Positions 1 to 45,963 of a stretch of 64,000 nucleotides of DNA are shown in pieces. Position 1 is the stretch's first letter. Each line of letters starts with the position of its first letter. The notes under the pieces were generated by a model that was given only the letters and a program-made list of their open reading frames with translations, ran no database searches and had not been told where the DNA came from. Position numbers and translations under genes: made by a program. Origin of the DNA: Phoronis australis (lineage: Eukaryota > Animalia > Phoronida); NCBI GenBank assembly GCA_002633005.1, contig NMRA01000530.1, positions 200,072 to 264,071 of the forward strand, written 5' to 3'.

Positions 1-1832
1 AATTGTCCACGAATATAGTAACCTTAGGTCTTTTGGGAATTTCTGGCCACCTGTCGAAGACTTGCACCAGGGAAATTAGCAGTAATAAGGCTTAGCGCGA
101 CGACGTATTTTGATAAAAATTCCATCTTTTACCAGTTGTTTACATGCAGACAGCTACGCATGCGCAATTTAATCACCACTAGTACAGCAGCGACACCGCG
201 AGGAGAATTCTCCGAATAGCCCCATTTCCGACCGGGCGACCAAAAATTCGTGATGTGTGCTGTACGGTAATACGTTAAGTATGACCTTATGCTATAAATA
301 TATTATTGAGAAATTGAAAAATCATTACTATTTTTAAACGTTGCGTTTGTGGAAACTGTTCATTGTGCAACATGGAAAGGGACAACATGTTATTTCATTG
401 AATACTTAAAAAAGATTTCTGTTTGAAGACACAATGTGTTGTAAAAAAAACTGTTAGAACACTTCCGTTCACAAAAGTGTCCGATGTGTAAGATGGGTTC
501 TAACCATGGCCCGGAAACATTTTTTGTGCTCAGCTGGTTTAGAGTGTGAATAACGGTCTGAATCTTGATTGCCTTATGCCTCGTACCCACTTACGTAGTA
601 ACCAATAGCTATTTAATAACAGATTGGGTCCACAAATTCTTTAGGTAGACATAAGCAGAGATGAACAGGTAAGGTAATAACATTAGGAGTGAAAAATTAA
701 TCAGTGATAAAAATACTAATTATATAACATAACATGATGCATGTGGTTAGCAAAATGACAGTGACTGTAATTAAAGTGATTATAATTACGTAACAGCGTT
801 CACACACTTGGCAATTGCGAACTTAATTGTGACCGCGCGGGGTCTGGAGAAATCAACGTGCCTAAAGGGTGTACGTGTAATGGGCAATGGCGGGGAAAAG
901 AAGATCTAATATTTCGAACAAGACGCCATTCAATAAGTACAAGATGTTCAGTTTGTGCATCACAATCACAAAGACGCTGACGGAACGCTGGTCAAAATAA
1001 CGGTGGCTTTTGGGTTTTAAATTATAAAAAAAAACGTATATTTAACCGTAATTTGGCAACAAGGGTTGTCGTTTGCTCAAACACCGACAAGGTTTTCGAT
1101 CCGAAACTGTTTAGGTAAGGTGAGCCAACTTTGCTTTCCGTTTATAACATTTCACCAATACCACACCACTTTAGGAATCAATGTGAACGGTTTCGCTGTA
1201 AATTGACCTCGTTGTATGCAATATCACTCAAATACTTACATTTTTGGCTGGTGTCTGTGACTTTTCCACTCAAAAGCAGACGATCACGCAGTAGAGGGTG
1301 CACTTAGCGCAGAAAATTATTTTTTATGTAATGCACAAGACAGGAGAGTTCCTTAGTAACTCGAGTATGATTTCGAGTCGACTCGAAAATGAACATTGGG
1401 CACGCAATTTCGAGTTCGACTCGACTGAGACAGATTTCGAGTAGAAATTTCCGAGTTCGAGTTCGAGTCTGACATTAGGCACCGGGCCCAGATCCCAGTG
1501 TCCTTGTATAATTAAAAAACAACTTTGGATTTTCAGAATGATTTTGTTTTTCTTCAGTATACTGTGCAACAAGAATTAAAGATTAGGATGACATAAAAAT
1601 GTAAAAAAGTCTAAGTTATTTTTTGTGTATCCACCAGCCTTAAAGGCTGAGTTTTACGATATGCTATACGTTGAGACATTCTAATTATAAAATCGTATAG
1701 TAAAGATATGAAATATGTATTTTACATAAACAGGCCTTAGGCACACATTACACACATTTAAATGATTTAACAAAGGCACTTCTAGAAAACTCCCCGAAGG
1801 CTTGCAGATGTGACGGTAACACTCAGATGTGC

Positions 1833-2310
1833 TCATGTGAATGAATCTTTAACGCGTGCGAAACACATATACATGTAGCGGGATAGGCGACAAGAGTTAA
1901 ATACTACTACTGCGATTACCCCCGACATAAAAGCAACTAAAGACTCACAGTAGCAACCACAGCCACGTTCGTCTTCAATCGCAGACTTGTCATCTGGTTG
2001 ATGGTGACTTATTAGCGCATCATCAACACAATCAGTCTGGTTTTGACGCGTGCTTCTAGTACCGCGTCTCCGCTTTCCGCAGCAAAGGCGTTTAGGCAAA
2101 GGAATTTGACCAAAGAAAACGTTGCCCAAAGGACCCATGGTTTTTTCGGCGTGATTCAATCCTTTCTGTCCACTGTCATTGTCCTCCGGGTGTTTGTACA
2201 CCAAGTAGTAGCCAACGTATATTTTAATGTCGTAATGCGTTAAGGCGAACTGTTTTATAAGGTCTGTGCAAGCCATACACGGTGACAATCTCGTGAAGAG
2301 GTGGATGGTC
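1833..2310 (-). CDS. Last coding exon of secreted AID/APOBEC-like (SNAD-type) Zn-dependent deaminase: SPCxxC motif, polybasic site, C-terminal hydrophobic segment
   Basis: Acceptor ctgttgcAG ends at 2311. The exon reads (R)TIHLFTRLSPCMACTDLIKQF...IKIYVGYYLVY, which is the beta-strand + SPCxxC + helix + strand pattern of the deaminase fold. It joins the 9560 donor in phase 2 (AG|G = Arg). Stop at 1833-1835. Confidence 0.85.
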
Positions 2311-2689
2311 CTGCAACAGATAGGCATTAAAGTGCTGCTTTCAAATTATTCTTTATGCAGTGAGTCGAGAAATGACGCTAACAAGGGAATTAGACCGTAT
2401 TACAAATTTATGTAGCACGTGAGCTCATTCTTAAGAATTTAAAAGTAATGTAATAGGCTTAAGCAGGGGGCGGATCCAGGATTTTNTTTTTTCCATCAAA
2501 TAGCTATAAAGCAGTCGTTGTTTTTCGACATTTCAACTGATAAAACATTTGAATATGATGCCAATAACACATAATTTTATTTCAAACAATTTGTTATATT
2601 GCCTCGAGTTTTTATGGCAAAAACAACTAAAAGATGAAATGATTGTCCCCTAAATTTTTCTTATTTCGAAATTATGATAAAAAAATAAA

Positions 2690-2910
2690 AAAATGCGTAG
2701 AAACCTTAAGAAATTGAAGTACTCAAAAATCCAGAAAATGATTACTTATGCTAACCTAAGAAAATCTGATAACAAGTGACTATAATTTAAGCGGTTAACG
2801 CATTAAATTGACATTGTATAGTAAAATTAATGCGTTTTCAAAAGGATTCAATCAGAACTGGCTCTTCGGTAACCCATGTAAACTTCACTTTTTTGCCCCA
2901 GGTGCCTTTG
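2690..2910 (+). repeat. Dispersed repeat, diverged copy of 38570-38800
   Basis: Colinear shared blocks: aaattgaagtactcaaaaatccagaaaa vs aaatttgaggtactcaaaacccagaaaa; cgttttcaaaaggatt vs cgttttcaaaatgatt; ggtaacccatgt...aggtgcct vs ggtaactcatgt...aggtgcct. Confidence 0.6.
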
Positions 2911-4399
2911 TTCAGGCGGCTGTTGCGGAAAAACTGTTTGATCCCCGCACTTGAACAAACTCAGTTTCGTAGGCAAACACAAAGCCACAAAGCATGAGCA
3001 ATTCCATATAAAAATCAGATGGTGGGCTATATATGCAAAATCACCAATTTTTTGAAACTTAGCACATCAGCTGACCTTGTCAAAAGAAACCTGAGCCTGA
3101 TTTTTTAAGAGTTTCTGAGTTTGTTTTAAACCTTTTTACGACCCCTTTGTACTTTTTCTGAAAAGTAGCAAATAAAAGACTGGGAAGTAGGTGACTTTTT
3201 GTCAACAACAACACATCTTCGCTTCACGCTATTGAAAAAATAACTATACAGCAGAAAGAAGAAAGAATAACATACAAGAAAATTAGTGCGGATGGATTTA
3301 TTGATTTTTATGTCCTCTCATTTTAGCCTACAAAAATGTCATTTTCACTGCTTATTATTAAGGCCATTTTTACGCATTTTTTATCGCTCTCCCAAATCTA
3401 TATCGGATTCTTTTGGAACATGAGTTAACTTCCATCTGTTACTGCTGTCTTTGTTCATTCCAACGCAAGAATAAAAAATCTTGTCTCTTTCATAGTTTTT
3501 GTACAATGAGTCTTTTACATAACTCTCACACTTTTCTGCCAATCTGTGACTGTCAGTTACAATAAAAGACTCTAGGAGGCGCTACTCGATTGTGCAATTA
3601 TCTATCGACCAAGATGCCAAATAGAACAAATATCATTCGTTTTGCTACATCAGTGAAGAAGGAGATCATGGGAAGCTGTATGAGATTTTTTCTTCGCGGT
3701 TTTTCAGTTTTGCTGGTGCAAAAATAAAAATCTATTATAGGATTACAGAACTTAAAAGTCAATTTTAATATACTGATGAGTTAATAATACAACCCCAATC
3801 ACCATCTCATACTTCAGAGAAGCAGGTTTTATTCTTATTAAGGGTGCCCATTACCCCTTGCTTGGTCAGTTAATGAACACCGGCGTAATGGACTAAGAAT
3901 CCCAGCACTGCCTGTAGGGCATGCTGGTCCATTTTCAGACCTCCTTGACAAGTCCCTGTATATGCGCTTGAAAAAGTCCTCTCAAACTATTTTAGCAGAG
4001 TTCATACTAAAACTAATCAAGATCTTCGAGATCACTAGTGAAAAGAGGACGGCGGATAGGAGCAGACGTATCGTGTTATTGGACATACAAAAGGTCACGC
4101 AATGCTTCTTGTACTACACAAAAGCTGCCGAGCATTGTGGCAGTGCGCCAGTGGAATTTGCAATTTCAGAAAAATAACAGTTACGGATATTTACGATTGA
4201 AAACATAGTAATTTCAGTGATATCCAAGTTACCAGCTTTCCAAACCAGTATTTAAACAATTAGATGCTGTTGCGACTTACCAGCTATAAACGTTTCATAA
4301 TATGTAAATTCCGTTCATGCAGCGGACTCAAAACCACAGTTTCTTGAAGGTATGCTAGGTTTAGTGTATGTACGCAACACTTCAAAAAACCGCAAAATA

Positions 4400-5440
4400 C
4401 ATCGAATCCATTCCAAAACAGGAACATGTCATTGTTTCTTTAATAGAAAGCTAGTTACCAAATCCAATAAAAATCCGTCAAGGAATTTAGAAGTAAAAGA
4501 GGAAAACAAAAAGAATGAAATTGCCACTAGGGGGCACAGATTCATTGGAAAGCCATCGTCGCCGGCGTTGTTAACTTCACATAAATACACTTACTAAAAT
4601 TAATCAAGATCCTGCAATGGGTTTAGGAGATACAGCTATGGGCGCAAAAACAAAACTGCCACTAACGGGTGCCACACTAGTCGATGTCGCTGGAAAATCA
4701 TCATTAACCATCCTCTTCACACAAAGAACATATATGCTAATTTTCAAAATTATGCTTAGAGTGGGTTTGGTTGGCAGAGGGGCGGACGCCAAAAACAGAC
4801 TAGGAAACAATACAAATGGCCCTTAGATAGCGTAAAATATGTCAAATCATCCAAAAACGCCGTTTCTGTAATAAAAAGCTGTTAACCAAATTTCATAAAA
4901 ATCCATCAAGGAACTTCAGAGAAACAGCTGAGAAAACGAAAAAAAAATGAAATTGCCACTAGGGGGCACAGTGTTTGTTGGATCCGTCAGAAAGTCGTAG
5001 TCGTCCGCTGTCAACTTCATATAAATACACTTGCTAAATTTAATATAGATCCTGCAATGGGTTTAGTAGAAACAGCCATGGGCGCTACAAAAAACAAAAC
5101 TGCCACTACGAGGAGTCAAAGTCGTCGGAAGGTTATCGTCAACCGTTCTCTTCACACTTAGAACATATATGCCAATTTTCACAATCATTCTATGAATGAT
5201 TTGTTTGATAGAGGGGCAGACTCGAAAACAGTAAAAATGGCCACTGGGTGGAACAAAATACCTCAAATACATCCGAAAATGCGCGAGGATAACGCCATCT
5301 CCCTAATAGATGGTTATTATCCAAATTTCATGAAAATCCGTTGAGGAGCTTTGAAGATACAGAGGTAAATGTATAAAACTAGGATTGTCACTAGGGGGCA
5401 CACCAGTTGTTGGATCCATCCGAAATTTGTCGTCATCTGT
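4400..5440. repeat. Tandem array, ~2.5 copies of a 432-bp unit (three ~144-bp subrepeats), Helentron/DINE-like internal satellite
   Basis: ttg(c/t)cactagggggcac recurs at 4521, 4953 and 5385. ccaaatttcat(a/g)aaaatcc and ataaatacactt...aaattaat...agatcctgcaatgggttta also repeat at the same period. Confidence 0.8.
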
Positions 5441-5989
5441 CATGTGGGCTCATAAAAACCCGGGTTCCATTCAGAAACTAATGAGGTGCACATCTGAATA
5501 CGACTGACCGACTGCATGGCAAAAAGTACTGAATAAGTGAAAATTATGATCAACTGCCATTACAATTTTAAAGGGAACTGAACTGCATTGTCAATTTTTG
5601 AGTCGTGGGGTATAATCATGAGTGGAGCTTCTTTCCATACTTAGAAAATATTTTGACGCAAATATTACAATACAAATTACGGCAAGCAATCACCTCAGGG
5701 ATGGTCGCCATCATTGCTCTGGCATAATCTACTAGCTTCAATGCGACCCGAGCAGACTAGTGGAATGGCAAATCTGGTGACGATTTCATCAGCTCTCACA
5801 AGTCATATGTACTAAAGATGTGTGTAAAGATGGGTCACCTTTTGTACAATTATGTTACATACTTTTTCGTGGTGTTTCGGTATAAACATGGGTCACACCT
5901 TTGAACCATTTGAATAAATGTGGATCACAATTTACAGACTTGCAAGGTATAACATTGTTGCAATTTTCAAAGTCCAGCAGCCCATACTA

Positions 5990-6570
5990 ACCCGCTAACC
6001 GGATAGGCCTATCAGGTTTGTGCACTTGGGCAGTCAGTAAGTCGAAAGTTGTCAGCGAGAGCTAATAAAATATTCTGAACTGAAGTCATGACCTCTTGAC
6101 TCAGGCCAACAGTTGTGATAAATATGAAGTAACTTTTTAGCAATTGCTACAAACATATTACTTGCACCAACAGGGACTAACAAATCAAACTGGCGAAAAA
6201 TCTTTTGCGACACGCGAAAGTCAACGCCCCGTTCAATCTTCCGCTTCGTTTTAGCTGTGTGTTCTGGATAACAGCACGTCAATTTTTGTCTAAAGCCAAG
6301 TCCAAACTCATGTCGATGTGTAAGACATATAACGGGAAATTTCCATTGGTTTGCCAGTCCAGCCTCCTCTCTCCAGCTCTGGCAAGAATCAACTGTAATT
6401 CCGATATACTTTCAAACTTCTGTGGCACTTTGCATGACATCAGATGACTTCTGACGTCTTTAACACAGCTAATGAAGGCCGAATTTCCTCCGCGATCCCC
6501 CTTTAGTAACGAAAATTGACCAAATGTACAAGAAGGAAATTCACGCCTCCCTATTCTTTGCAGTGACAGG
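5990..6570 (-). mobile_element. Decayed DNA-transposase N-terminus, Sola3-like
   Basis: Frameshifted peptides SELQLILARAGE, CCYPEH...ERGVDFRVSQKIFRQFDLLVPVG and ILLALADNF resemble, as I recall them, the Cys-rich N-terminus of invertebrate Sola3 transposases. Superfamily assignment is from memory. Confidence 0.5.
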
Positions 6571-7171
6571 AAGTCATAGGCGGATTTAGGAGGGGGGGCC
6601 AAAGAGCAGTTTTACTGACATGAAAAAATGCAAAATATGACTTTATAGTCAAATAGGTCATATCCCGGTAACCAAAGGTCATTGTGTGCAAATATTGCAG
6701 CAATGCATTTTGGGCCAGCATCCCAACACGTGCACAAAGTATTAGCTCTGTATGAATTTTTGAGTATATGGTGATTTTTCGTTTTCATATGGTTTTTATA
6801 TGGAATCATTCTTAAAAACTATTCAACGATAGCTGTGTCCGCACCCCTTAGGTCGTCTACATGTATTTCAATGGCCAATTTTGTTTTGTTTGATCTTGAT
6901 GTGTTTTAACACAATTAAAATTAGATGAACGACTTGCAGAAGGCGAGTTCAGTGAGTGTGACCACCGAACACCCCTGAGATAAAATGGTGTTCAGATGTC
7001 CTATAGCTCATATGTAATTTACGATGACGCCAATGCAAGTTAAGGTAACCTTACACTAAGGCGATGCTAAGGTGGTGCAGTTTTTCTAACGTCTTGTTAC
7101 TTACGAAACAATGTTTCAAATGTTTGAAATGTGCACAGGTTTTCACGTTCTAATAACTGCAAGGCACGTTT

Positions 7172-7887
7172 TCAGGTTTTGTTTCAAGGTTAAGAATCAT
7201 AAAATGAAATTTAACGCAAAGCAATAGGGCTCTTCCGTATTATACAGCGGCACTCTAATCTCGTCGTATTTACGCAAATTGGTGGGCGCAATATCTGCCT
7301 TACACTTAAATTTTCTATTTCGGGCCATTAAAGTACACGTGTTCTTTGTTGTTTTACTATTCCTTACCCTTTTTCCTCGCCTGAATTACTCTATTCGTCC
7401 TTCCAATGACAAGTAGCATTGGTATTATTAAAGGAACTTTTGATATTTTGTTTGCTGCTCTTGGTCTGTCAAATGCTTTGGAGAAATTATGAGATGCATT
7501 GGTAGGAAAGCTAAACTTTGAAGTGTCTAAGAAGTAGGTCACACCAGTGCAGTGTGCAGTTTTAAACCATATATAAATACCTCCAGCATGACCATGCTTA
7601 TGGGTAGACACAAAACAATGTCAATAACTGACATTCAACATTTGCGNTCAGGTTTTGTTTCAAGGTTAAGAATCATAAAATGAAATTTAACGCAAAGCAA
7701 TAGGGCTCTTCCGTATTACACAGCGGCACTCTAATCTCGTCGTATTTACGCAAATTGGTGGGCGCAATATCTGCCTTACACTTAAATTTTCTATTTCAGG
7801 CCATTAAAGTACACGTGTTCTTTGTTGTTTTACTATTCCTTACCCTTTTTTCTCGCCTGAATTACTCTATTCGTCCTTCAAATGACA
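7172..7887 (+). repeat. Near-identical ~240-bp direct duplication (7172-7411 and 7648-7887) across an N gap
   Basis: The two copies differ at only a few bases and the second starts right after the N at 7647. This suggests a haplotype overlap or scaffolding artefact. Confidence 0.85.
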
Positions 7888-8082
7888 ACGAAATATTACT
7901 GCTGTGCTGTGGGCTGCAACATTCCCCTGTACGAATTTGACAAATATCCGCAGATACGTGATGTAAATAATTTCGTCCCCTTCCCGACATCAAGCAAATG
8001 CAAGAAAATCCGGAGCGAGTGGATAAAACAAATTCGTCGGAATCCCTATTTTCTGCCTTTTCAATCTCGCACTATTCAGTGA
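7882..8082 (+). pseudogene. Truncated THAP DNA-binding domain (transposase N-terminus)
   Basis: MTTKYYCCAVGC...FVPFPT...RSEWIKQIRR...FLP matches the THAP CxxxxC, FP and W pattern. The final CxxHF is lost to a stop. Confidence 0.7.
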
Positions 8083-8342
8083 TTAAAATCGAGAATACTT
8101 CCACAGCCTTGCACCATGACGGTTTCAAACATAACCTATGTTTTGAAAATGTGCCTGCCTTTCCAAAACTGTGTTAATGGAAACGCGCGTTCTTAACTCT
8201 GTAACAAAGCAGGACGTATCGCTGTGTAATCCTAGACTGTCCTACCAACTGATGTGCTGACGATGTGACACTGATTCTCTTGAATTCACCTTTTGGATTT
8301 TTGGTAGTGTACCACAAAATAAATGACAGAAACTGCATTTAA

Positions 8343-9007
8343 AAGAGTCAAAATACTAAAATATGCGTTTTTACAAAATATGTTCTTTGATACACAAAAA
8401 GAACTGTTTCTTGGTGATGTCAGTGTGCCAAACTGTGTCACTTTCATAGAAACTTAGACAGTGACCGCCGTCTCTATTTGTCCAGTGGAGACGGTGTAGC
8501 TCCTAAAGGAGCTTCATACGCCGGAAGTTTTTCAGAGAATGTCTCGCACCTACTAAAACATCAAAGTCATGTTGTTAAATACCTTTTGTGCGTAGAGGAC
8601 ACCTTAGGAGGCCATCGATGTCTTTACTTCTCTCAAACTCGAACACATACTCCCGTTATGTAACTTTTTCTTTGGCAGTCCCTCGTCCACTTCCCAAAAT
8701 CGGTGACTGGACATTTTTACACTGCGCACGCTAAGGAATATGACGTCATACCATCTGCCGCACGCAAGTGGCCAGTTTGCGATTTTGGAAACTGAACGAG
8801 GGACTGCTCGAAGAAAAAAGTGATGACGGGAGTATTTGCCCAAGTTGGAAGTAAAAAGACTTTTTTCATCAGTGTGAGGCATAATTCGCCGAAAAGCTTC
8901 TGGCGTATGAAGCTGCTATCGCCGGGATGTTCTCTACTGAGACAGCTAAAGGCGGTGGTCACTGTATAATAAAAACGCAACACGTTAGTTTAGCCACCTC
9001 GCCTCTT
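8343..9007. mobile_element. MITE with long imperfect TIRs and TTAA target duplication (Kolobok-like termini)
   Basis: TTAA|AAGAG at 8339-8347 and CTCTT|TTAA at 9003-9011. Inverted blocks: acagtgaccgccgtct vs acagtgaccaccgcct, and gcttcatacgccggaagttttt vs gcttcatacgccagaagctttt. Confidence 0.75.
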
Positions 9008-9559
9008 TTAAAGTCCGCAATCTATATGGGCAGCCCTTGATTTTCACACAAAATTTTAAAGAAATATTGACGTGCATATAACACAGCTGTAGTGAACCGA
9101 ATTTTATTATTCGAACACCGATTTCGGTTACCTACTTCTTGCGTTTTACATATATCGGAAATCTTTTATTCTTATTTTTGTACTTTGAAATGCTAAGTTA
9201 TTTATTGCATTTTATGATCCTGCTTGCAAAGCTTGAGGGATGTGTTCTTGAAACATTATCACTAACCGATTTTAAGCCCAGACTCCTCTGGCCATGCGCA
9301 TAATAGTAGCCGGGATATCTGGGCATCGCCTGTTCATTAGGGTCAGTGCAACTGGTAAATCCACGCATAGCATTACTGATACTTGTTTTTACTGGCAAAT
9401 GACCTGAGTTGTCATTATCAGTTGAAATACTCGGAAATGTACACGTGACTCTCTAAGCGACAGTTCTCCTTATATTGTGGTACATCTGATGGCCTCGGCG
9501 GACTCAAAGAGAAAGCGCTCAAAATCACTGTTAGGATTGTGCAACATACTGAGACTTAC

Positions 9560-9945
9560 CTGACTTTCTCTCCAAGATTATTTACTAGCTGCCCAAGCGT
9601 AGAACCAAAAATCTGTTTCTCCGCATGTACGGCCGGGTTTTTTTTGCGCAGCCGCACCCAGTAGTTCATTTTCGTCTCAGGTTGAAGATCATCCCTATAC
9701 ATTTTGTTTTTGTTTACGGAATTCTCGTTTGTCCTGAAGCAGGGTTGGAATGGGTTCTCAATGGAGTTTCCAGCTTTGTTCAAGCTAACTGCTGCATACT
9801 GCGTGTTGCCATTGGTCCACAAATGAAAGAACTGTCCCATGAGAACAAGGAATTCACGATCTTCCTCTGCTAATTTATTGTGTCCTTCAGTAACAAGGAA
9901 AGACGCAGAAATCAGCGCACAGACGATAAGAATTCGCATGGCCAT
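9560..9945 (-). CDS. First coding exon of the secreted AID/APOBEC-like deaminase: signal peptide and HAE motif
   Basis: Acceptor ttctttcAG ends at 9952 and the ATG is at 9945. MAMRILIVCALISASFLVTEG is a signal peptide, followed by QYAAV, NYWVR and VHAEKQI. Consensus donor AG|GTAAGT at 9560/9559. Confidence 0.85.
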
Positions 9946-11030
9946 TGAACTCTGAAAGAAGAACATTATTTAAATTTACAAGAAACTCAGACTTGTTGGT
10001 ACAGCAAATTTTAAATTGTTAAATTAGGCAGTCACGTAGACAATTTGCAAAAGGTCCTCTTTTCTACAAACTGTAGAGGAGGGATTCATGACATTCTTTT
10101 CGTACGACTTTCCATTAAAGTATATCGAATCTCGAATATTGTACCAAACGAAACAAACTTCCACTAATACTCAGCCCCATAGCAAGATAACAACACCGGA
10201 ACAAGGCGCATACACGGCGCAACTTCAGCCACGTGAGATCAATGTTGGCGTAGAGTTGCACAAATAGGCTAGATCTTGAACCGTAACTTCAATTTATTTC
10301 AGTTGTGACCATGTCAGGGGTGCAATTTCGTTTATGTGGGTTCAGACTTTTATATATTAACAATTTTCACTCATTATGATTTGCGCATTTTTTGTGGAAA
10401 AGGAGATTTTCATGCCAATAACATAACAATTTTGAGCTTCAGGGGCGCATTATGCTTCCCTTCAGCCAGTCACAAGCTCAGAAGTCCAGAAGGTGCAGAA
10501 TATTTTCAATGCCCCCATTTGTGTTCTTGTGGGTTAATGCTTCATACTTTTTAAATTCGTCTGTCGAATGTTTTTTTTTTTCTTGCATATGGCATGGAAT
10601 ACTGACATTCTTCAAAAGATTAAATATCTTTTTACTTTATATTTCTAGCAGAAACATATCTAGATGATACACTGTGTAATACCTACATGTATCACCTAAT
10701 GAAGAAACAATGAAGCACAGAAAAATACTCCAAAATTGATACAAAATATCTACGTCACCACAAATATCTCGCAAGTGACATATTTTGTTGGTGAATATTT
10801 GTTTTCGATTTTACATTATGAGATATACCGTAGTCATATCAGAATATTGCTGGATAGTTGCTACCCGGGCCATATACATGTACATGTATCATCGTATTAT
10901 AGATGAGCAATCTATGGATACTACTGTAATGAGTAGCAACTAGAAAGGAAGAACGACTTATTGTGTTTGTGTCAGGAGCTGTCCTCTCGCGGTGCATGGA
11001 ATTCTTCTGCCTTTATTGAGTTATTGCTCG

Positions 11031-11560
11031 TCATTCACGTGGGAGGTCTTCAAGTATATAACATGATGATTGGTCCACTCCTGCATGACTTGCTTCTTTA
11101 AACATGTCTGCGTTTGACTGACGTGGATGGCGTACTGTTTTGCGACATTTGGTGATGAGTCTCAATCCATTGTTTGGAGTCAGATGGCAGAAGCCAGTTA
11201 TCCTGTGCTTTGCCGAATGAACGATGGTAATTGCTTCAGGTAACAGTCGCTGGTATGCTCAGCGTGAATGTAAATCGACACCGAACAGGAACGCTTTCCA
11301 GGATGAGTAGCCTATAAATCCATCCCAGGGTGGTGTGACCACATTGGTCTTGATACTTAATGATAGTGGCCTCGTCTTCTGCTGTGCAAGAGTTTGATGT
11401 TCCGCTTTGATTTCGGATTAACAGGCCGGGTGAGTTTTCTCGTATGCTCCATTGTAAGTTACGTTTACCCGCCAAGATTCCACAAGTTTCGATGCTTTTT
11501 CTTGTGTTGCTTAACTGATCTTGCCGATAGTTTAACCATATCAGATTGAATTACGATTTG
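11031..11560 (-). pseudogene. Intronless AMSH/STAMBP-like JAB1/MPN+ (JAMM) deubiquitinase domain, frameshifted with an internal stop
   Basis: Conceptual translation across frameshifts gives IETCGILAGK...NQSGTSNSCTAEDE...YQDQ...TLGWI(Y)/THP/AFLFGVDLHSR*AYQRLLPEAITIVHS...GFCHLT...GL..ITKC...HP. These are the diagnostic AMSH-family motifs. Confidence 0.85.
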
Positions 11561-14500
11561 ATCAAGCACTGGGATATACGTTAGTTAGTACATGAGATAT
11601 GTTGTTAGCTAACACGACAAGCTTCTGAGTTCATTTCTGTTTTCAACATCTGACTGTTTACTCTGTCCTGGAATAAGTGGTTCTTCATACTCGGTTACAT
11701 TAGTATGACTGTAAACACTTGCACAGGACTGTACATCTAAATCATGAGCATTCTTCCTGGCAGATTCTTTTAAGTTCATTCTCGTATTATTCGACGTTGT
11801 AGCGGTCTCTGGACAGGGCTGTTTATCTTCATCAGGAGTCATTGTCTTGGCCAAATTTTTCAATTTCAATTCCTGTCGTTCGTTGATACAGAGATCTCTT
11901 AAACTCTTAATTGATTTCGTAACGGACTCTCTCGAGTTCATTTCATTCGAACTCTCTGTAGAACAGCCGTCGATCAGGGGACAGAGGATACAGCACTTCA
12001 CCAATCGTTGTTAACAATGCCAATAAAACAGCAATTCTAGGCTATGCACTTACTTAAATTCTGGATTTTCGAATAACACCTGTCCATTACAACCAATGAA
12101 CGTTTTAATACTTGCATTACATCAATACAACATTTGTTATTTCATAAACTGTTAGCATTTTTGATTTAAAATAAAGGCGAAACTTAAAATTTCAAGATAC
12201 AATTCAAGCTTACTATCTTACCAAATGAATTGGCAATTGACACTTGTAGTTTTGAACATGCAACAACAGCATGTGTTGATTACTTGTAATATCGATTTCA
12301 TATTGTTTAAATGTTACTTTCTAAAAACAAAATTGATTGCAGTGGCGACAATAATGTTTGTCGGTAAATCTTCAGCCTTTTATTGTACCATTCTACATCT
12401 TCTCAGACGATGTGCCGCTATTGAGAAGATATGCGTCTAGGTTTTCCGGATCCACCATCATGTTCCCTCGGCTAGGTGTATCCCGATCCCAATGTTCACC
12501 AAGAGTGATGTCAACGTTTACCCATTGCTGAATGATGTTATTCTTCTCAAACAATTTTTCAAATAACTTGTCACATACTTTGAACATTATGTTTCAGGTT
12601 AAAGTGACCATGTAATTGTTAACTCCATAGAAGTAATGGCAAACATGTTCTTTTACTTCACTGACTTCTGCTCACGTTATTTACAAAAATAATAACACAT
12701 CCAATGAAGTGAAAAAACGGTTTAAAATTCAGGCAGCATTCACCCACAGCAACTTATCTGCAGTCATCCATATTCAAACAGTTCTACATCTTTTCAATTT
12801 CGGAAGTTGTGATTGGCTAAAAAGCAACTCCACAGTGGTGTACTAGGAGCCATAGAAATCCATTTTTTTTTACAAAAATATGCAACTTTTAAACTGAATT
12901 ACGCGGAGACTTACCGAATAACAAATGTTTGAAGGCATGTCTAGCCACATGCCTTCCTGGCATGGTAACGGGATAAAAAGACTGGAGCCACTGCCCATGG
13001 CCTACATGGAACAGAAATCATATCGCATGAAATAACGTGGTCAAGGATTCGTGTAGTTGCGACAAAGTATGGAGTAAAATTTGATAGTCACGGGCCCTTG
13101 TTCGTAAGTATTGCAGGAGATGTGTTATTACTCTCTGGTCAATAATATAACTAGATGCAAGTTTAAGAGAATGTAGGCTTAATAGGAGTGATAAATATTT
13201 TCAGTTATTCGTTTTGGTGTCGAATGAATATACTCGTGTCTCTAAACAGATAATTTCGGTTCAGAGGTATTTGTCAGTTACGGAAAGCATCCAAGTATCA
13301 ATGGCTGATAGATTTCTAGTGAGGTTTTAGCCAACTTCTGTCATACTAACTGTTCACCGGTCACTGCCTATATGTACGTGTTTCTGCAGCAAAACGGATA
13401 AATTCAAAGCCTCGATTGTTGCAACACATTATACTATAAACCTGCGCCGTCTGTCATAAGTTAACTTATAATTTAGACCACTTATTACTGTCAAATTTAT
13501 CTGACGTTGTTCCTTTCTCACATCATGAATAGGTTTCGAACCAACTTCAATTAACAGAGCCATTAAGTCGCTTGTCACGGCGGGTAACTTTAAAGAAGCA
13601 TGGAACGCGAATTATATGTCGCCAAAAATATATTTCAAACAACTCCTGACGAAAGTGCCACTTTCTGAAGAACACTGAATCAGCTATTCTTCCATTCTTT
13701 TCGTGGGAATTTTGGACCTTCGGGAATTCCAAGCTGTTACTAATCAGTTATTCTTTTGTCTCAGCCCACAGGCGTAGCAGTGTGCCCCCTTTTTCCTAGA
13801 AAAAAGTGGGATGGAACCATTTTTCCTAGAAAAAGTACGACTTAGTAGATCAGTCCAGACGTAGTGGTGTGTGCCTTCTTTTCCTAGAAAAAAGAGGGAG
13901 GGAACCACGTGTTCGTTAGGAGGAAGGAGGGGTGGGGAGGGTCGAACTTTGTTCCAAAAAGGCCGGGGCATGTCAAGAGCAGTTTTATTTCAAGGGATCC
14001 ATGTCTTTATTCTTTGCTCATCTCGAACATAGCTACTCAATGTGGTATAGAGAAATTGAAAAAACGTTTAGTATAAGACATGTTTTGTTAGCTAGTCTGG
14101 ACGTTGCATTTGCATTTAAAGAGGCCTGGAACAGACTAAATTGCAATATTGAAAGTGGTTCTCTGCCATTGAAACAGAATTCAACCAGCTCAACAGGTAT
14201 TTTAGGGTTTTTTTCATAAAGATTTTTAATTTTTGTTGATAATAAAGCAACTTTCTTTTAGTTTTGAATTTCAAAAAACGATCTGTCACCTGCTCCCCAC
14301 TTCGTCAGTTATTCTCACGCAAGGCAAAGCATGTCTCCTTTTTTGTATGACATGACATAGACGTAGCAAATTTCACTTATATGGAAATGTGACCTTTGAT
14401 TTCAAGCGACTTCAACTGAAGGTATAATAAACTATACGTCAATAATTGTAGTGGAATGTCGTGGTTAACTGATCAAATACAAAGCTCAAAGAACAGAACT

Positions 14501-26032: not shown

Positions 26033-29000
26033 CTAAAATATAGACATACTTCGATTGTTTAAATTCCCCTGAGATAAGTTTATTTTTGGCTGTGTTCTAT
26101 CGTCTGCCATGTCTACACTTGACTGAACTTTATGCCATATCATCTGCGACTCATGAAAGCTCTCATAAGCTAACCTTTCTTTCTTCAAATGCTTGTACAT
26201 TTCACTCTTTTTAGATAAACAAATCGCAATTTCAGGATGATTGGAGTCATTTCTGTAGACCCTTGACCATTCCCTCAACGATTTGTCGTAGTGCTCTGCG
26301 GCTTCTTCGAATTTTCCCATGTCTTCGAGCTCGTTTGCAATCTGATACAAACATTCTGCGATACTAGCGTGATTTTGATTGTGATGAATCTTCCTCAGTG
26401 TTTCTAAACATTGCTGAAATTTCTTTTCAGCTTCTTGGTGTTTGTCCATTTTGCTGCAAACACGTCCTATGCCATGTAAGCACGATACAATGTGAGGATT
26501 ACCCAATTTTCCGTAAATTTTCTTCATAAAACGTAACGATTTTTGGTAGTAGCTCTCGGCCAATGGGTATTCTCCCAGCTCATAGCAAACATTGCCAGCG
26601 TTATGCAAACAGAAGGCTACTTCAGGATGAGGTACATCACCGTTAATACGTTTCATCATGTCCAACGAATCTTGGTAGTATTTTAAAGCCACGTTTTTCT
26701 CGCCTTTTTCACTATACACGTTCCCAATGTTGTTCAACCTGGATGCAATTTCGGGATGATCAATGTCACCGTAAATTCTTTTCACCATTTCCATCGAGTC
26801 TTTGTAGTATCGTAAGGAGGAGTCGACCTGACTCATTCGACTGTGCACACTAGCAATGTTGGACAAACTCGATGCAATGTCGGGATGATCTATATTTCCA
26901 AGAATCCTCTTCCTCATTTCCCAAGACTTTTCAAAGTATTCCAAAGCTGACGTGTACTTACCCATGTCATAATACACACCCCCAATGTTGTTTAAACACG
27001 ATGCAATTTCACTGTGGTCTTCTACACCATAAGTGGTGTGCATTACTTGCAACGATTCTGTCAGGTGTTGCAATGCTGACGCATGCTGACCCATCGTGTT
27101 ATACACATTTCCAATGTTATTCAAACAAGGTGCTGTCTTAGCTTGATGTCCATCACCGGGAAGTCTTTTCCACATACTGAGCGCATCTTTGTAGTGTTTT
27201 AAGGCTAGCTCGTACTCATTCATCTTCATGTACATACTTCCAATGTTGCTAAGACTGGATGCAATGTCGGTGTGATCGATATCTCCAAGAATCCTCTTCC
27301 TCATTGTCCACGATTCCACGAAGTATTGCGTGGCTGAAACGTAATCACCCATCTCGCTGTACACACTTCCAATGTTATTCAAACACGACGCTATTTCATG
27401 GTGATCTGCGCCATAGCTCATTTTCATTAAATCAACCGCTTGCTTGAGTTGTTGTAAGGCTATGACGTGCTTACCCATCTTGCTGTACACATTTCCAATG
27501 TTATTCAAACAAGATGCTATGTGAGCTTGATTTCCATCACTGGGGAGCCTCCGCCACATATTCAGCGCATCTTGGTGATATCGTAAAGCTGATTCGAAGT
27601 CATTTAACTCACTGTATACATTACCAATGTTACAGGAACACGAAGCGATATCACGGTGGTCAGAACCATGAGCAATCCTCTTTCTCATGGCTATGGACTG
27701 GTTATAATATTCCAATGCTTGTTTGTATCTTTTCATCTCTTGGTATGCATTACCGACGTTATTAAAACCTGACGCAATGTCAGGATGATCACTTTCGCCG
27801 TGAATTCTTTTCAGCATGTTCAAAGAGTCATGGCAGTACCGCAAAGCTGACTCGTATTCACCCATGCCAATGTATGAACTACCAATGTTATTCAAAAATG
27901 ATGCAATTTTAGGGTGATCTTCACTATAAACCCGTTGCATTAAATGCAACGATTCTTCGTGGTGCTGTAAGGCTAACGCATTCCTGCCCAGGCTGTTATA
28001 CGCAGTGCCAATGTTACTCAAACAAGCTGCGATGTCAGCTTCATTCTCATCAGCAGGATGGTTGTGCCACATATCTAGGGCCTCTTGGTAGTATTGCAAA
28101 GCTGACTCATACTCATTCATCTCATTGAACCCATTACCGAGATTACTGAGGCATGATGCAATTTCAGAATAATTTGTTTCTCCTTCAGCACTCTTCATTA
28201 AACGCAATGATTCTTGGCAGTGTTCTATGGCTAAATCAAATCGTTGCATTTTGAAGTATGTACTCCCAATATTATTCAAGAGAGGTGCAAACTCTAGACT
28301 ATCTGTATCGCCGTGAATTCTTTTCTTCATACTCAATGAGTCTTGAAAGTATTTTAAAGCCAGATCGTATTGACCTTTGTCACTGTACACGGTTCCAATG
28401 TTGCTCAAACACGATGCAATTTCCGGGTGTTCTTCCCCATAACTCTTTTGCATTAAGCGCAACGATTCGTTGAAATGCTGTAAGGCTAGCGCATGTTTAC
28501 CCGTCTTTCTATACACATTGCCAATGTTATTCATACAGGGTGCTGCTTCTGTTTGATTTCCATCACTGGAAAGTCTTTGCCACATACTGAGCGCGTCTTG
28601 GTAGTGTCGCAGTGCTGACTGATAGTCAACTAATTCACTGTACACATTACCAATGTTACTTAAACACGACGCGATGTCACGATGGTCAGCGTCTCCAGCC
28701 ATCCTCTTTCTCATATCTAAAGACACTTTATGTTGCTCCAGCGCTTGTTTGTATTTTCTCATCAATTGATATACATTACCAATGTTATTAAATGCCGACG
28801 CAATATCAGGATGATCATTTTCACCGTGAATCCTTTTCATCATGGTCAATGAGTCTTGATAGTACTGCATGGCCGATTCGTATTTACCCATATCACTGTA
28901 CGCACTACCAATGTTGTTTAAACACGACGCAATTTCAGGGTGATCATCAGTGCCATAAGCTTTTTTCATCAAATTCAACGATTCTACGAGGTGCTGTAGG

Positions 29001-31239
29001 GCTAATGCTTGCTTACCCATCTTTTGATATACAGTGCCGATGTTGTTTAAACACGATGCCATGGTGCCTTGACTGGAACTTCCATGAAGTCGTTTTATCA
29101 TAGAAAGCGAGTCTGTGTGATACACCAAGGCGGTTTCGTAGTCGCACATATTACTGTACGCGTTCCCAATGTTATTCAAACATGAAGCAACGGTGTCGCG
29201 ATCCGCACCACCACAAATTCGTTTTTGCATGCTCAAAGACTCTTCGTAGTGTTTCAACGCTAAAGCAGGGGAGCACATTTTACTATGCACATTTCCAATG
29301 TTATTCAAACATGACGCTACGTCGTTGTCATCTCCATTTCCTATGATACGTCGTCTCATATCTAAGGAGTGTTGGCAGTATTCCAGGGCAACTTTGTAGT
29401 TACCAACATTTAAGTGTGCACAGCCGATCTTGTTCAAGCACGACGCAATTTCTGGGTGGTCACTTTCTTTATAAATCGTTTTCATTAAGCTCAAGGACCT
29501 TTCGTAGTATGTTAAGGCCATGTCATGCTTGCCAACTTTGCTGTACATATCAGCAAAGCTGCACAGAAGTGACGCAACGGTACGTTGTCTAATACCATGT
29601 ATACCTGAAGGTTCGATGACTATCGAGGTTTGTGCTGACGTATCACAACTTTCAGCTATACTGTCAATCAAATGCGTTGATTCACCCAGCCATTCCAATG
29701 CTTTTTTCTGCACGACGTCATCTATGGGGGCATCTAGTAAGCTCAAGTAATTAAGGAGCTTTTCAATATCATGAAAGCTTTTCTCTGTTGTAGATTGTGG
29801 CGAAATGAAAAGTTTGCCAGCCCTCAAAAGGTCTTCGTCAAAAAACTGCTGTTTGTTCGTGTCAAACGCAAAATCAGGACCTTGTGTACACAGAAAGACC
29901 AAGAGTGGAAAAACCGTGCAATGGTATCTCATGATCAGAAGATTGTAGTTGCTGTTCTCAGGCTCATCGCCAGTCAAGATTTGGTTCAACGTAAGCAGTG
30001 CAACTTGCTGGTTATCATTGTGACCAACCACCCTCAACAGTGTGTTTATTGAAAACGCCACTTGCAGATTATGCTTTGCTTTTTCTGACAACATTTCCTT
30101 AGATTCCATTTCATCAAGCGCGTCCCAAATGTTGTCGTTTTCCAGGCAAAATAGGGATTTTAATGCGGCAAAGAGCCCATCAGGGCAATTTTTTATTACC
30201 TTCGTCGGTTCCTTGTCTTCTTCCTCCAGGTGTCCACGCACCATCAACCTGTATGTTTCAAGTAATACGTCTCCACCTTCACTACCATCTATTTGTAGAA
30301 CATGAGTTAACCCATGACCACTTGGCAATGATAACCTATCACCGAATACACCTGCCATGTAACTGGGAGTCCCGACTAATGTGCAGCTTTCTCGTTTTGT
30401 TGTGCGAGAGTTGGGAGGAGTACTATCTAGTGAAAACCCGCTACCAACAGCGTCATCCACAAACCAATTTCCACCAGGTACATCAAGGTCATTTAGTGAC
30501 GTGATATTCAAAGTACTGACGTCTGTTTCTCCCATGTTCAGGCCAATCATGTGGACAAGTTTCAGCGTGTTTTTGAAGTAGTCAATATCTTTGCAGTCAT
30601 CGTCTAAAAGAATTCCCAACTTAATTTCGGAATATGTTGTAGCATCGCCTCTTGCCAAAGACCCAAAGGCAAGTGTAGCATAGTCGCAATTCGCTGGGCC
30701 TAATATTTCTCTAGTCTGGGAGCAGAAATTCTTACACAAAGTCTTCACTTCAGAGTTCAAATTTTCAAGGAGTTTTCTAGTTTCTTCGACAAACATTTTT
30801 TCAAACTCAATTCGTTCATCCGTTGGTGCATCAAGTGTGAATTTGGCTTCAAAGTCGTCTAGTATCTGTTTGGCCTTAGAGGTTATGTCACGCCTACATG
30901 TTTCAAGCCTTTCTTTATTGTTAGGCTTGAAGTCAATGGGCAGCGTATCTTGATCTTTTGATATGGCTCGGCAGAATGTGGCTTCATTTTCTCTCAACAA
31001 CATTTCAAGATCCCGTTCGAGACTTGAATCTTTTACCCTAACTAAAGCAGCGTTATATAACGCAGAAGCGGTTACAAAGTGTTGCGTGGACTTAGTCAGC
31101 AAACCTCGTTCTTTGTGAACACTTCCTATTTTCTGAAGTATTTCACCAACAGACACCGAACTCCCCTCAGTTGATGAGAGTTCTTTAAGTGATGCTGCGA
31201 GTTTTTTTTCCATGGCATCCAGCCGTGCGAGTCGTTTTT
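26033..31239 (-). CDS. Giant terminal exon: degenerate GlnD/DUF294-like nucleotidyltransferase, helical domain and ~27 TPR repeats (42-43 aa, kinesin-light-chain/NPHP3 type)
   Basis: Open frame of 5.2 kb with motif AFGSLARGDATTYSEIKLGIL and repeats of IASCLNNIGxVY...ALxYYxxSLxM.KRI.G..DHP. Phase-1 acceptor gtatttcAG ends at 31240. An alternative internal start gccATGg lies at 31213. Confidence 0.93.
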
Positions 31240-33810
31240 CTGAAATACAGCAACGTTCGGGATATATCAAGTGATGAAAGATAGTTTAGATTTGAGACGC
31301 CATGTTTTTATCGAAAGGTAGTAGAGGTATCCCATCAAATTTTCAGAACATGAAAACGAGTATAAATCACGAAACCAAGTTTTCTTCGGACCTAGAAAAG
31401 CTGAAAAATTTTGATATTTCTTAAAAACGTAAAAAAGAAGACCAATGGATACGTCATGATGGACCCAGCTCATGATTTTTTATTGTCTGTACGTGATCAC
31501 GGTACCAGTTATCACGACTACATGTAATTTTGATCCGAATTCAAAATGAATCTGAGGGGTTATGGGCACGTAATTTGTTCAAATCTCTGAAATAATACAT
31601 GTCGATTGGACCGGGCCCGCCAACATGTAGGTACCTGTCTTTATATATTGGCGCACTGCTGTTGCATTGCATTTTTGTTCTTCCGAAAGTACCTCCAATG
31701 TTATGTGTTTTCTTTTTGATAAAATCGGTAGGCTGGATCTTGATTCCACAGAAAACCTGATTTGAATTCCCTGCCACAGGCTGCTATCGGCGAGTTACCC
31801 GGTCGAGGTTTAAATGTTTCCAAATGATGCCGATTAAGGATCAGAATTTGAAATGCCAGGCCTGAAACGTCGCGGAGGTATGTCCCGAGGAAGGCGGGCT
31901 CATCATTGACTGTCGACAGTGCTTTTTTCTCCTGCAATCATCACTGCTCCACCTGTACATTATTTAGTAGTATCATAACGTATGATGTCATAATTTAAGA
32001 ATGCCATAAAACAGTATGTGTATATCGTATCCTGAGAGTTTGAGAGTAAATTACCACAAACAGCGATTCTAGAGCACCATTAGTGATTGCACCCTTCATG
32101 ATATATGTACATGTACTCAAAACGTATATGGTTTTAGCAAACGCAGCTCCAAAAACGTGCACGGAAACAATCTATTCAGCAGATGCTGTATACTGCGTGT
32201 AAGGGGAATGTGTCAATTTTGATCGCTGTATACACACTGTGGTCCGAAAAGTATCATATTTAGTACGTAACCTATGTCCATATTTTTCGAAAGGTGTACA
32301 CAATAGGCCAGCTAGTATCTTTTGACATCATCGTGAAGCAACTTAGACAGCCCACTAAACAGCAATAGATAATTAAAATTTATCCCGATAGGAGCTAAAA
32401 GCGGTCCACCTTTTTTAATCATAACTCCCACTCCCTCTGGGAATTGCCCACTTCCATTTCAAATCCTATAATCTCGACTGTTTCAGTTTTCTGACATATT
32501 TCGGACAATATGCTGGTCGTTCTGCTCTGCAAAATATTTGTGTAATTAAACGGCAAAAAATCTTGCTTGTGAAAGACAGTGAGTTGATTTTGCCTTGGAA
32601 ATTCTTAGACACTCCTCACGAAGTCTCGATATTGTTGGGAGATCTGACTGAAAGAGGGCCTACGGCTGTGACCATTATTTGAATTAGCTACATTTCCGGT
32701 CTCCAGATATGTGACAACCAAACGTTCACTTGTTTCGGGCACACCATATTTGTGGAAAACTATACCTCAACGATTTAATCTGCTGCTGTTTACCATACTG
32801 TCCAGGACGATTCATGAATATGTCAAAAACTTTGGTTGCATTTTCCCACTCCCTGAATTCGCTCCCATTCTCCCTTTTAATCTTATATTCTAAAGGGGGG
32901 GGGGGACGATTCTTAATAGAAAATCTGGCAAAACGTGAAAATTGCTTTTTGGTGTATTTTTCTCACCTTGCTTTAACTCATTTGTTTGTCTTTTTTGCAT
33001 GGGTAATAAATTGGATATACTGACCAATTAACAAAATCTGATAAATCATGAGTCTCTGGAGGTTCAGATTCTGTAGTTCCTTGAGAAATTTGACTTTTAA
33101 CTTCTCCTGTCAAATAACTGACAATGCGGGCACTTGTCTCGGGCCACCTCTCAAAGAAAGGATCCCGTCTGAGAGTTTGCCCTTGACACGGCAGGCATGC
33201 TTCGTAAATACTGTACTCCAAATATGAAAGGCTATACCAATCAATATGGAAAGGAATGACGGTTGATACTGTAACCGGGTCAACTAACGTCCATCATACG
33301 ACTTCATAAAAACAAAATCAGAATGGAAATTGACCCCATCTTTGGGTCTTTCCGTGAGTAGCTCCTTCAGAAAAAGAGTGCCTTCAGTTACCTCAGCAAC
33401 AGCTGGGATTCACATCAAATTCTATACATTGAACTGAAAAAGAGAAAGCATCTCTTATGGGAGAGGATTTAAAAATATGTGCAATACCAGTTTTCGGCAT
33501 TTTTCGAAGTATATGCTATTAATTGCTCAAGCAACGACCCATGCTGCATTATTTTATATTTGTGGTCTACAAAAAATTCCCGGCTAGGGTCCCCAAAGCG
33601 TAAATTGACAGTGTTATCTACATTTTTAGATACTTCCTTGTGTTTTCTTTCTCCGAATGTTTCTGTTCTACGGCTTGTCGCTACACAGGTTCCATTCTCA
33701 CGTTTGCGCTTAGTCTACGCCCACCCTCTTTCCATGCCTCCCCCAACGCCACCGAATCTCCCCCGCGTCCCCCTCTTTCTACGCATATGCACTTGCCATC
33801 TATACTGTAC

Positions 33811-40888: not shown

Positions 40889-41342
40889 TCATTTCAAAAG
40901 ACTTTTATTCGAAAGTGGTTCTAAAATATTTCGAGGGAGATATTTATCTAAACCAAACTACAGTATGATGAAATAAAAATATTTCATCGTCAAGACGAGA
41001 ACTTTTTGGCATTCTCTGTAACATGCCACCTATTAATTTATGCAATATTTTGTTAAGCTGAGGTAAAATTGCAGATTTCATCAACATATGGGAATATTGG
41101 ATATGAAGAAATTCATACAAAAACATTTTAATTTCTTTAAAATTACGTTTCTTTTATTATTTCATATCCTTAGTAAAATCCCGTTGTCATATTCCATGAA
41201 TTGTAACATGACTCGGCCAACATTTTTCGGTTTTGCATGTTTTCGTATATAATGCCTCTTAATTATCTTGAAAACTTGAAGCAATGCGGAAAAGTTGCTC
41301 CAGATTACGAAATATACAAATATACCAAACCTGAAATCTCAC

Positions 41343-45620: not shown

Positions 45621-45744
45621 TATGTATATATGCGAAAGTAAACGTAATGTTAAAACTTTTTGCTGTTTCATTTTCATTAGTTTATATAAATAAATAAATA
45701 AATAAAAAAATTTAAATGACATATTTGAGTAAATGTTAGTTCAC

Positions 45745-45963
45745 CTTCGCTCAGGTTGATATGGTCATTGCTGTCTGCCGTTGGTTCTTCTGTTCTGCGA
45801 TATAGTTGTTTGACCTCGGTTAACTCAGGCTCAATTACAGAGGACTCAGCTATAGAAGCATCATCGCTGCACTGCACTGGTTTGTCTTTCTCATAGACGT
45901 TAGACAGGTGTGTCGTAAGTGAGTTATTTTCGCTTGTTCTGTCTTCAGGTGGCGAGTTGTTGT
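45745..45963 (-). CDS. Internal low-complexity exon of the TPR gene
   Basis: ttccctttcAG acceptor, AG|GTGAAC donor, 219 nt, phase 1-1. Acidic and Ser/Thr-rich. Confidence 0.7.

What the first reader, a model, noticed from the sequence alone, without database searches (positions are those of the whole stretch)
1833..9945. Hidden secreted AID/APOBEC-like (SNAD-type) deaminase whose active site is split by a 7.25-kb intron
Seen in sequence: two short ORFs that look unrelated join via GT-AG in phase 2 into a 287-aa protein with a signal peptide and an intact H-A-E-x29-P-C-x2-C zinc motif (VHAEKQIFGSTLGQLVNNLGEKVR/TIHLFTRLSPCMAC), plus QYAAV and NY upstream motifs. Established: HxE...PCxxC is the cytidine-deaminase active site, and secreted novel AID/APOBEC-like deaminases (SNADs) are a fast-evolving metazoan clade with proposed immune roles. 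Inference: this is a catalytically intact, divergent invertebrate extracellular nucleic-acid deaminase that ORF-level annotation would miss.
Basis: partly seen in the sequence, partly recalled or inferred. Interest (0 to 1): 0.92.

Follow-up and report, generated by a model that had tools for sequence, protein, structure and literature searches.

The report
Hypervariable, membrane-tailed APOBEC-like animal deaminase
This is a real spliced animal gene, seen in RNA, for a protein with the zinc motif of APOBEC-type DNA/RNA-editing enzymes, a predicted export signal and a predicted membrane anchor; its versions differ almost only by amino-acid-changing letters, so it is likely a cell-surface or shed defence enzyme in an arms race.

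Summary
Coding exons 9945-9560 and 2310-1833 (minus strand) join over a 7,249-nt GT-AG intron into 287 aa with HAE-x29-PCxxC. In RNA run X3, 9 reads cross exactly this junction. Runs X1 and X2 have no reads on exon B. The reads are mostly 90-95% alike, so they are other alleles or young paralogues. Exon B matches deaminase Pfam families below cut-off; no relative was found in any search. It works like a SNAD and shares SNAD1-like N-terminal marks by eye, but fails defining marks of SNAD1/2 and SNAD4. Activity, fold of the whole protein, localisation and the animal group were not established. The long intron itself is ordinary.

The parts
9952..9965 (-). Probable 3' splice site (pyrimidine tract + AG) 6 nt before the ATG; implies an unseen upstream exon
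   Evidence: Sequence. X3 bin depth implies about 14x right up to 9951, equal to exon depth, and 0 from 10216 to 12500. Inferred; the upstream exon was not found.
9560..9945 (-). Coding exon A (aa 1-129): signal-peptide-like segment, QYA strand-1 motif, about 38-aa insert, HAE zinc/catalytic motif
   Evidence: covered by X3 reads; no Pfam match
9883..9945 (-). Predicted signal peptide aa 1-21 (uncharged 5-19; candidate cleavage after G21)
   Evidence: Kyte-Doolittle 19-mer 2.16, highest in the protein; -3/-1 rule. SignalP not available.
9619..9627 (-). H107-A-E109
   Evidence: Sequence
2311..9559 (-). GT-AG intron, 7,249 nt, phase 2, rich in dispersed repeats
   Evidence: 9 junction reads in X3
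1833..2310 (-). Coding exon B (aa 129-287): strand 3, SPCxxC, helix 3, strand 4, loop 7 with Y167, helix 4, strand 5, polybasic linker, hydrophobic segment, tail, stop
   Evidence: 12 deaminase-type Pfam families, best E 1.2e-5; reads run through the stop without a further joint
2268..2282 (-). P139-C140-x2-C143
   Evidence: Sequence; no read difference listed at about 15x depth
2046..2093 (-). Polybasic linker aa 202-217 (dibasic sites, two R-x-x-R), predicted convertase site
   Evidence: Motif scan; K208 is Q in 11 of 11 reads and R217 is H in 3 of 11, the RRR and R214 show no listed change. Inferred function.
1890..1943 (-). Uncharged hydrophobic segment aa 252-269, followed by basic residues and an 18-aa tail; predicted transmembrane anchor
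   Evidence: KD 19-mer 2.03; 5 of 5 read changes inside it stay apolar, P about 0.045, depth only 3-6
1680..1832 (-). 3' untranslated region, end not defined
   Evidence: X3 depth 1-3 down to about 1680; no AATAAA/ATTAAA in 1500-1833

Best explanation
A spliced, transcribed two-coding-exon gene encodes a protein with an intact HxE..PCxxC zinc motif that is likely an AID/APOBEC-like cytosine deaminase, predicted to be exported by a signal peptide and held in the membrane by a C-terminal anchor, and likely under pathogen-driven diversifying selection. Steps: (shown) exons, splice, motif, excess of amino-acid changes. (Inferred from sequence) import into the secretory pathway, type I topology with the deaminase outside the cell or in the endolysosomal lumen, optional release at the polybasic linker. 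(Inferred from family knowledge) His107, Cys140 and Cys143 bind zinc, Glu109 shuttles the proton, loop-7 Tyr167 restricts the pocket to cytosine in single-stranded nucleic acid. (Inferred) the target is foreign nucleic acid, and the variable loop 7 and flanking surface track changing targets or inhibitors. It is best seen as an undescribed branch near the SNADs, not a member of SNAD1-4.
For: Splice and expression. Family: the exon-B core hits 12 deaminase-type Pfam families and nothing else at E<=10; the AID/APOBEC-type profiles align over residues 2-53/58. 0 of 220 other frames of the window hit Pfam at E<=0.001. A low-confidence model gives strand-helix-strand-helix, the Helix-4 order. Selection: 34 of 36 differences non-synonymous, pN 0.093 vs pS 0.018; neutral mean 8.9 silent, P=0.003; main read type alone 33 differences, 2 silent, P=0.004; core aa 130-200: 22 differences, 0 silent, P=0.007. 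This frame is the only one of six without stops. 6 of 12 loop-7 residues change while V166, Y167 and SPCxxC do not. Two read types coexist in X3. SNAD-like marks by eye: Q-Y-A opens strand 1 in 3 of 3 SNAD1 rows and 1 of 2 SNAD3 rows seen, and in none of the other rows seen; a long strand-1/2 insert is shared with SNAD1/2 (PMC5889660 supplement). Topology.
Against: All Pfam scores are below curated cut-offs, and the best is the bacterial BURPS668_1122 family (25.9 bits vs SNAD4 22.8), as are the ten best Atlas hits with a family (top score 0.76, lead only). Exon A matches no family. No homologue was found, so there is no alignment, tree or conserved-anchor test. The anchor is short (18 uncharged residues with Ser and Asn) and judged by simple hydropathy only; the tail region alone does not reject neutrality (P=0.09). 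An unseen upstream exon could extend the N-terminus in frame. No activity has been reported for SNADs as of PMC11004436 (passages).
Confidence: 0.55

Rival explanations
1. A plainly secreted (or GPI-type) SNAD-like deaminase: same enzyme and immune role, but aa 252-269 is not a lasting membrane anchor.
For: All described SNADs are soluble; SNAD1 was found in fish and shark plasma. The segment is short. The polybasic linker would release the domain anyway.
Against: The segment is nearly as hydrophobic as the signal peptide (2.03 vs 2.16), is followed by basic residues and an 18-aa charged tail unlike a GPI signal (recalled rule), and stays apolar in 5 of 5 read changes.
Confidence: 0.2
2. A polymorphic surface recognition protein (gamete or self/non-self recognition) that keeps the zinc site; the fast change is driven by a partner protein, not by pathogens.
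For: Reads in only one of three raw-read runs. Changes also cover helix 4, strand 5 and the C-terminal part. Carp SNAD1 occurs in seminal plasma. Gamete-recognition proteins evolve fast (recalled).
Against: All four catalytic residues and the loop-7 Tyr are present, and the densest change is in the loop that sets target choice in AID/APOBEC enzymes.
Confidence: 0.13
3. An independent capture of a bacterial polymorphic-toxin deaminase (BURPS668_1122-like) that gained an intron and export signals, unrelated to SNADs by descent.
For: Best Pfam hit and the ten best Atlas hits with a family are this family. Gln two residues after the catalytic Glu fits a mark of that clade (PMC3239186 passages). 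No animal relative was found.
Against: That clade has DxE and a C-terminal hairpin or truncation; this protein has HxE, and the Pfam match stops at exon-B residue 33 while AID/APOBEC-type profiles extend through the predicted helix 4.
Confidence: 0.1
4. The window's copy is a decaying paralogue, and the excess of amino-acid changes is an artefact of comparing different copies.
For: Only 1 of 38 reads is 99% alike or better. A degenerate AMSH-like gene lies 1.3 kb upstream.
Against: The frame and both splice sites are intact. Decay predicts about 9 silent changes of 36, not 2; relaxed selection cannot push dN/dS far above 1.
Confidence: 0.04

Closest known systems
[quoted passage not shown] 2018, PMC5889660)
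   Same: [quoted passage not shown] All by eye against supplement Fig. S1.
   Different: No C---CxxC---C signature; Cx2C rather than SNAD1's Cx3C; no SNAD1/2/3 Pfam hit on either half; polybasic linker, hydrophobic segment and tail instead; apparently not a vertebrate locus.
SNAD4 (sponges; Pfam PF18750)
   Same: Signal peptide, Cx2C, basic residue four before the first Cys; best AID/APOBEC-type Pfam hit (22.8 bits, E 1e-4, cut-off 27, half protein).
   Different: Tyr not Trp in loop 7 (one SNAD4 row seen also has Tyr), no Trp after strand 5; has a long strand-1/2 insert that the two SNAD4 rows seen lack; C-terminal hydrophobic segment.
Classical invertebrate AID/APOBEC-like deaminases (sea urchin SpAIDL, Lingula; PMC5956068, PMC5889660)
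   Same: Compact helix 3/strand 4 region, loop-7 Tyr, many alleles or paralogues between individuals.
   Different: No signal peptide is described for them (0 occurrences in the main text of PMC5956068); clade marks WP and NYS are absent here.
BURPS668_1122 bacterial toxin deaminases (Pfam PF14424; PMC3239186)
   Same: Best local match over strand 3, CxxC, helix 3, strand 4; Gln at Glu+2.
   Different: HxE not DxE; sequence continues into a predicted helix 4; spliceosomal intron, animal signal peptide.

Membership tests
Zinc-dependent deaminase superfamily | HxE-x25-30-PCx2-4C | tested here: met
   H107, E109, 29-aa spacer, C140, C143; definition in PMC11004436
Zinc-dependent deaminase superfamily | Deaminase fold bringing the four residues together | tested here: inconclusive
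   Only the halves could be folded: pLDDT 40 and 49; no significant fold match
Zinc-dependent deaminase superfamily | Deaminase activity | not testable with these tools
   Needs an assay
AID/APOBEC-like (Helix-4 division) | Helix 4 between strands 4 and 5, with extended loop 7 | tested here: inconclusive
   Helix predicted at exon-B residues 46-58 in a low-confidence model; AID/APOBEC-type profiles align to residue 52-58, below cut-off
AID/APOBEC-like (Helix-4 division) | Aromatic residue (Tyr) in loop 7 | tested here: met
   Y167 in L-V-Y, placed by eye against Fig. S1; no read change at 166-167 while 164, 165, 168 change
SNAD (all) | N-terminal signal peptide | tested here: met
   Hydropathy and -3/-1 rule only; true start not proven because of a probable upstream exon
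SNAD (all) | Placement in the SNAD clade of a tree | not testable with these tools
   No homologous sequences were returned
SNAD1/SNAD2 | [quoted passage not shown] | tested here: inconclusive
   An insert of about 38 aa is present by eye; its structure is not resolved
SNAD1/SNAD2 | C---CxxC---C signature after strand 5 | tested here: not met
   Cys at 205, 206, 223, 246, 248, 250, 269, 278; no CxxC; C246 and C250 are Arg in most reads
SNAD1 | Cx3C active-site motif | tested here: not met
   Cx2C
SNAD3 | Loss of signal peptide; alpha+beta insert after strand 5 | tested here: not met
   Signal-like segment present; polar linker follows strand 5
SNAD4 | Cx2C and charged residue before it | tested here: met
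   R136 (K in 15 of 15 reads), Cx2C
SNAD4 | Trp in loop 7 and Trp at the end of strand 5 | tested here: not met
   No Trp in exon B of the window's copy; definition; one SNAD4 row has Tyr in loop 7
Dictyosteliid secreted AADs | Trp in loop 7; four-cysteine C-terminal domain | tested here: not met
   Tyr in loop 7; C-terminal Cys not kept between versions
BURPS668_1122 toxin deaminases | DxE in helix 2 | tested here: not met
   HAE
BURPS668_1122 toxin deaminases | Lys or Gln two residues after the catalytic Glu | tested here: met
   Q111

The most novel reading that the evidence does not exclude
An undescribed branch of the SNAD lineage in a bilaterian invertebrate, filling the gap between sponge SNAD4 and vertebrate SNAD1-3 (possibly in cephalochordates or hemichordates, which are blank in the 2018 survey), built as a type I membrane ecto-deaminase that is shed at a polybasic site and diversifies between alleles as fast as an immune receptor: nucleic-acid editing at the cell surface.
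Probability: 0.3. Interest if true: 0.82.

Novelty: new variant of a known kind. Interest (0 to 1): 0.64.

Why it matters
What exported AID/APOBEC-like enzymes do outside the cell is open; the 2024 SNAD1 paper calls their activity and role unknown. Described SNADs occur only in sponges and vertebrates and are soluble. A membrane-tethered version would place the enzyme where microbes or viruses dock or are taken up, which suggests how it meets a substrate. Naturally differing versions with loop-7 changes give a ready panel to test target choice and selection. It also shows that such genes escape protein databases: neither half has a detectable relative there.

Tried and rejected
No whole genome is held, so paralogues and taxon could not be checked. 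Homologue searches were blank: exon A against longer proteins, 111 candidates, none at E<=1; exon B against near-length proteins, 1 candidate, none; mature exon A against 1.84 billion representatives gave 1 hit, P0003, a tandem-repeat artefact, rejected; metagenome scans 0 of 183 and 0 of 188; genome scan 1 of 115, L001, a 29-aa match inside an unrelated 654-aa ORF, rejected. Atlas: exon A no lead; exon B leads under 0.9. PDB sequence search of the exon-B core: nothing significant. Folding of halves: low confidence. Foldseek lists APOBEC3G at ranks 3-4 with E 1.4, not significant; VIA-align best Z 4.4, no deaminase in the 50 rows. Complex prediction of the two halves with zinc: no verdict. No RNA holder was listed by the index; the raw-read runs were laid instead. 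A suspected extra donor (GTGAGT near 1948) was rejected: reads pass it without joint or loose end. A wrong-frame explanation of the non-synonymous excess was rejected: the other five frames have 6-12 stops. No second copy in the window (tblastn). Attempts to learn the animal group from the TPR neighbour gave nothing. No Rfam match in 1-26000. Earlier scan notes held nothing on this genome or sequence; those listed concern other genomes and were not used.
Full report
1. Observation. On the minus strand an ATG at 9945 opens exon A, which ends at 9560 before GTAAGT; exon B starts at 2310 after TTGCAG and stops at 1833. Joined in phase 2 they give 287 aa with H107-A-E109, 29 residues, then P-C140-x2-C143; the intron is 7,249 nt. 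The window holds only two [ST]PCxxC words in six frames, and 4 of 507 downstream AG sites complete the motif, all in one frame.

2. RNA. No indexed holder was listed, but three raw-read RNA runs and one contig set with the same species label were offered. About a fifth of each raw run was read. In X3, depth outside repeats is confined to the exon bins (6.4, 5.9, 9.3, 4.3; zero in 2536-2919, 9064-9447 and 10216-12500), all first mates on +, which in most stranded libraries means minus-strand RNA. On 1640-2900, X3 laid 38 reads and X1, X2, X4 none. Nine reads leave at 2313 with 30 letters that match 9563-9592 with one mismatch. This fixes the junction at 9560/2310. Reads run through the stop to about 1680 with no further joint. 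Depth implies exon A begins at an AG acceptor at 9952, so an upstream exon is likely and unseen. The reads are 1/11/26 at 99+/95-99/90-95% likeness, so they come from other alleles or young paralogues; at least two read types are present.

3. Variation. One search lists 39 substitutions, 36 in the coding part of exon B. 34 change the amino acid and 2 are silent (pN 0.093, pS 0.018). Placing the same substitution types at random gives 8.9 silent on average, P=0.003. The result holds for differences in 5 or more reads (30, 2 silent, P=0.015), for the main read type (33, P=0.004) and for the core aa 130-200 (22, 0 silent, P=0.007), but not for linker plus tail alone (14, 2 silent, P=0.09). The other five frames carry 6-12 stops. 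Changed residues: 3 of 22 around the zinc cysteines, 6 of 12 in loop 7, 7 of 25 in helix 4/strand 5, 3 of 44 in the linker. S-P-C-x2-C, V166 and Y167 show no listed change.

4. Family. The 76-aa core of exon B hits 12 Pfam families at E<=10, all deaminase-type: BURPS668_1122 (E 1.2e-5, residues 1-33), SNAD4 (1e-4, 2-53), NAD1, APOBEC_N, APOBEC1/2/4; none reaches its cut-off. Control: 0 of 220 other frames (219 of the 241 listed, plus the N-terminal 500 aa of the TPR ORF) hit at E<=0.001. Exon A hits nothing. The whole protein could not be scanned or folded. A model of the exon-B core (pLDDT 49) has the order strand-helix-strand-helix; fold searches were not significant. No homologue was found.

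5. Topology. Residues 1-19 are the most hydrophobic window (2.16), with a candidate cleavage after G21. After predicted strand 5 come a polybasic stretch (aa 202-217), a polar linker, an uncharged run aa 252-269 (2.03), basic residues and an 18-aa tail. Five read changes inside the run all stay apolar (P about 0.045). This suggests a type I membrane protein, perhaps shed; the convertase and positive-inside rules are recalled, and no dedicated predictor was available.

6. Comparison. Krishnan et al. 2018 (PMC5889660; passages, parts 2-3 of 8, section 12, supplement parts 1, 5, 6, 7 of 56) restrict SNAD1-3 to vertebrates and SNAD4 to sponges, and leave cephalochordates and hemichordates blank. 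The supplement was cut when stored and I did not see the clade alignments S15-S19, which may bear on the by-eye comparison. By eye the N-half resembles SNAD1 (Q-Y-A, long strand-1/2 insert) and the C-half is compact like classical or SNAD4 enzymes; the SNAD1/2 cysteine signature and the SNAD4 tryptophans are absent. The same paper reports high loop variability in SNADs and individual-specific paralogues in invertebrates, so fast change is expected for the family; the measured excess here is unusually direct. Iyer et al. 2011 (PMC3239186, passages) define BURPS668_1122 by DxE and a hairpin; not met, although Gln at Glu+2 is met. PMC11004436 (passages) says SNAD activity is unknown; PMC9207270 (passages) extends SNAD1 to sharks. 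PMC5956068, PMC7768089, PMC13402138 and PMC8195603 were seen as passages. 'Transmembrane' occurs 0 times in the main texts of PMC5889660, PMC11004436 and PMC13402138. Searches listed no title or abstract start on a membrane-anchored AID/APOBEC-like enzyme or a SNAD in a bilaterian invertebrate; the library lacks most subscription papers.

7. Organism. Not established. GC 39%, CpG o/e 0.87, 31 TACATGTA words and a neighbouring nucleotidyltransferase-like/TPR gene fit a marine invertebrate by my recall only.

8. Verdict. A real, expressed, orphan-level divergent AID/APOBEC-like gene that works most likely as an exported, membrane-tethered cytosine deaminase in defence (0.55). It is a new variant near the SNADs, not a filed member. 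The long intron is ordinary; the anchor and the non-synonymous excess are the findings. Interest 0.64.

Noticed in passing
window 11034-11550 (-): Intronless, degenerate AMSH/STAMBP-like JAB domain 1.3 kb upstream of exon A (PDB sst2 E 5e-10); the HxH zinc motif is missing in this frame and X1-X3 give no reads over 10984-11751. Probably a pseudogene.
   Followed up: partly
window 26033-31285 (-): Single 1,750-aa ORF: weak nucleotidyltransferase-like N-terminal part (DUF294 E 0.003, Polbeta E 0.012) plus about 25 TPR repeats; no relative at E<=1e-10 for residues 20-520.
   Followed up: partly
window 4500-5450 (intron): Array of diverged repeats with spacings near 147, 285 and 432-440 nt, with a CTCF-like word (label recalled) at 4524 and 4956; related RNA is abundant and strand-biased in X1-X3 (depth 70-136, mostly from other copies).
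   Followed up: partly
window 41305-41703 (-): 132-aa exon-like ORF that resembles a TRADD-N-type domain by recall only; no convincing Pfam hit.
   Followed up: no
window 45677-47038 (-): Two adjacent acidic, Ser-rich ORFs (132 and 319 aa), the longer with an internal duplication; no Pfam hit.
   Followed up: no
window 7172-7888 and 8507-8917: A 241-nt direct duplication at 98% and nested inverted repeats like a small transposon, both in the intron.
   Followed up: no
window 3304-4071: X1 and X2 have reads on both strands here (depth 2-9) while X3 has almost none, the reverse of the exons. Unexplained.
   Followed up: no
window 2142-2156 (-): A second N-H-A-E-K word in predicted helix 4; its N and K change in 10 of 11 reads, so likely chance.
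   Followed up: partly
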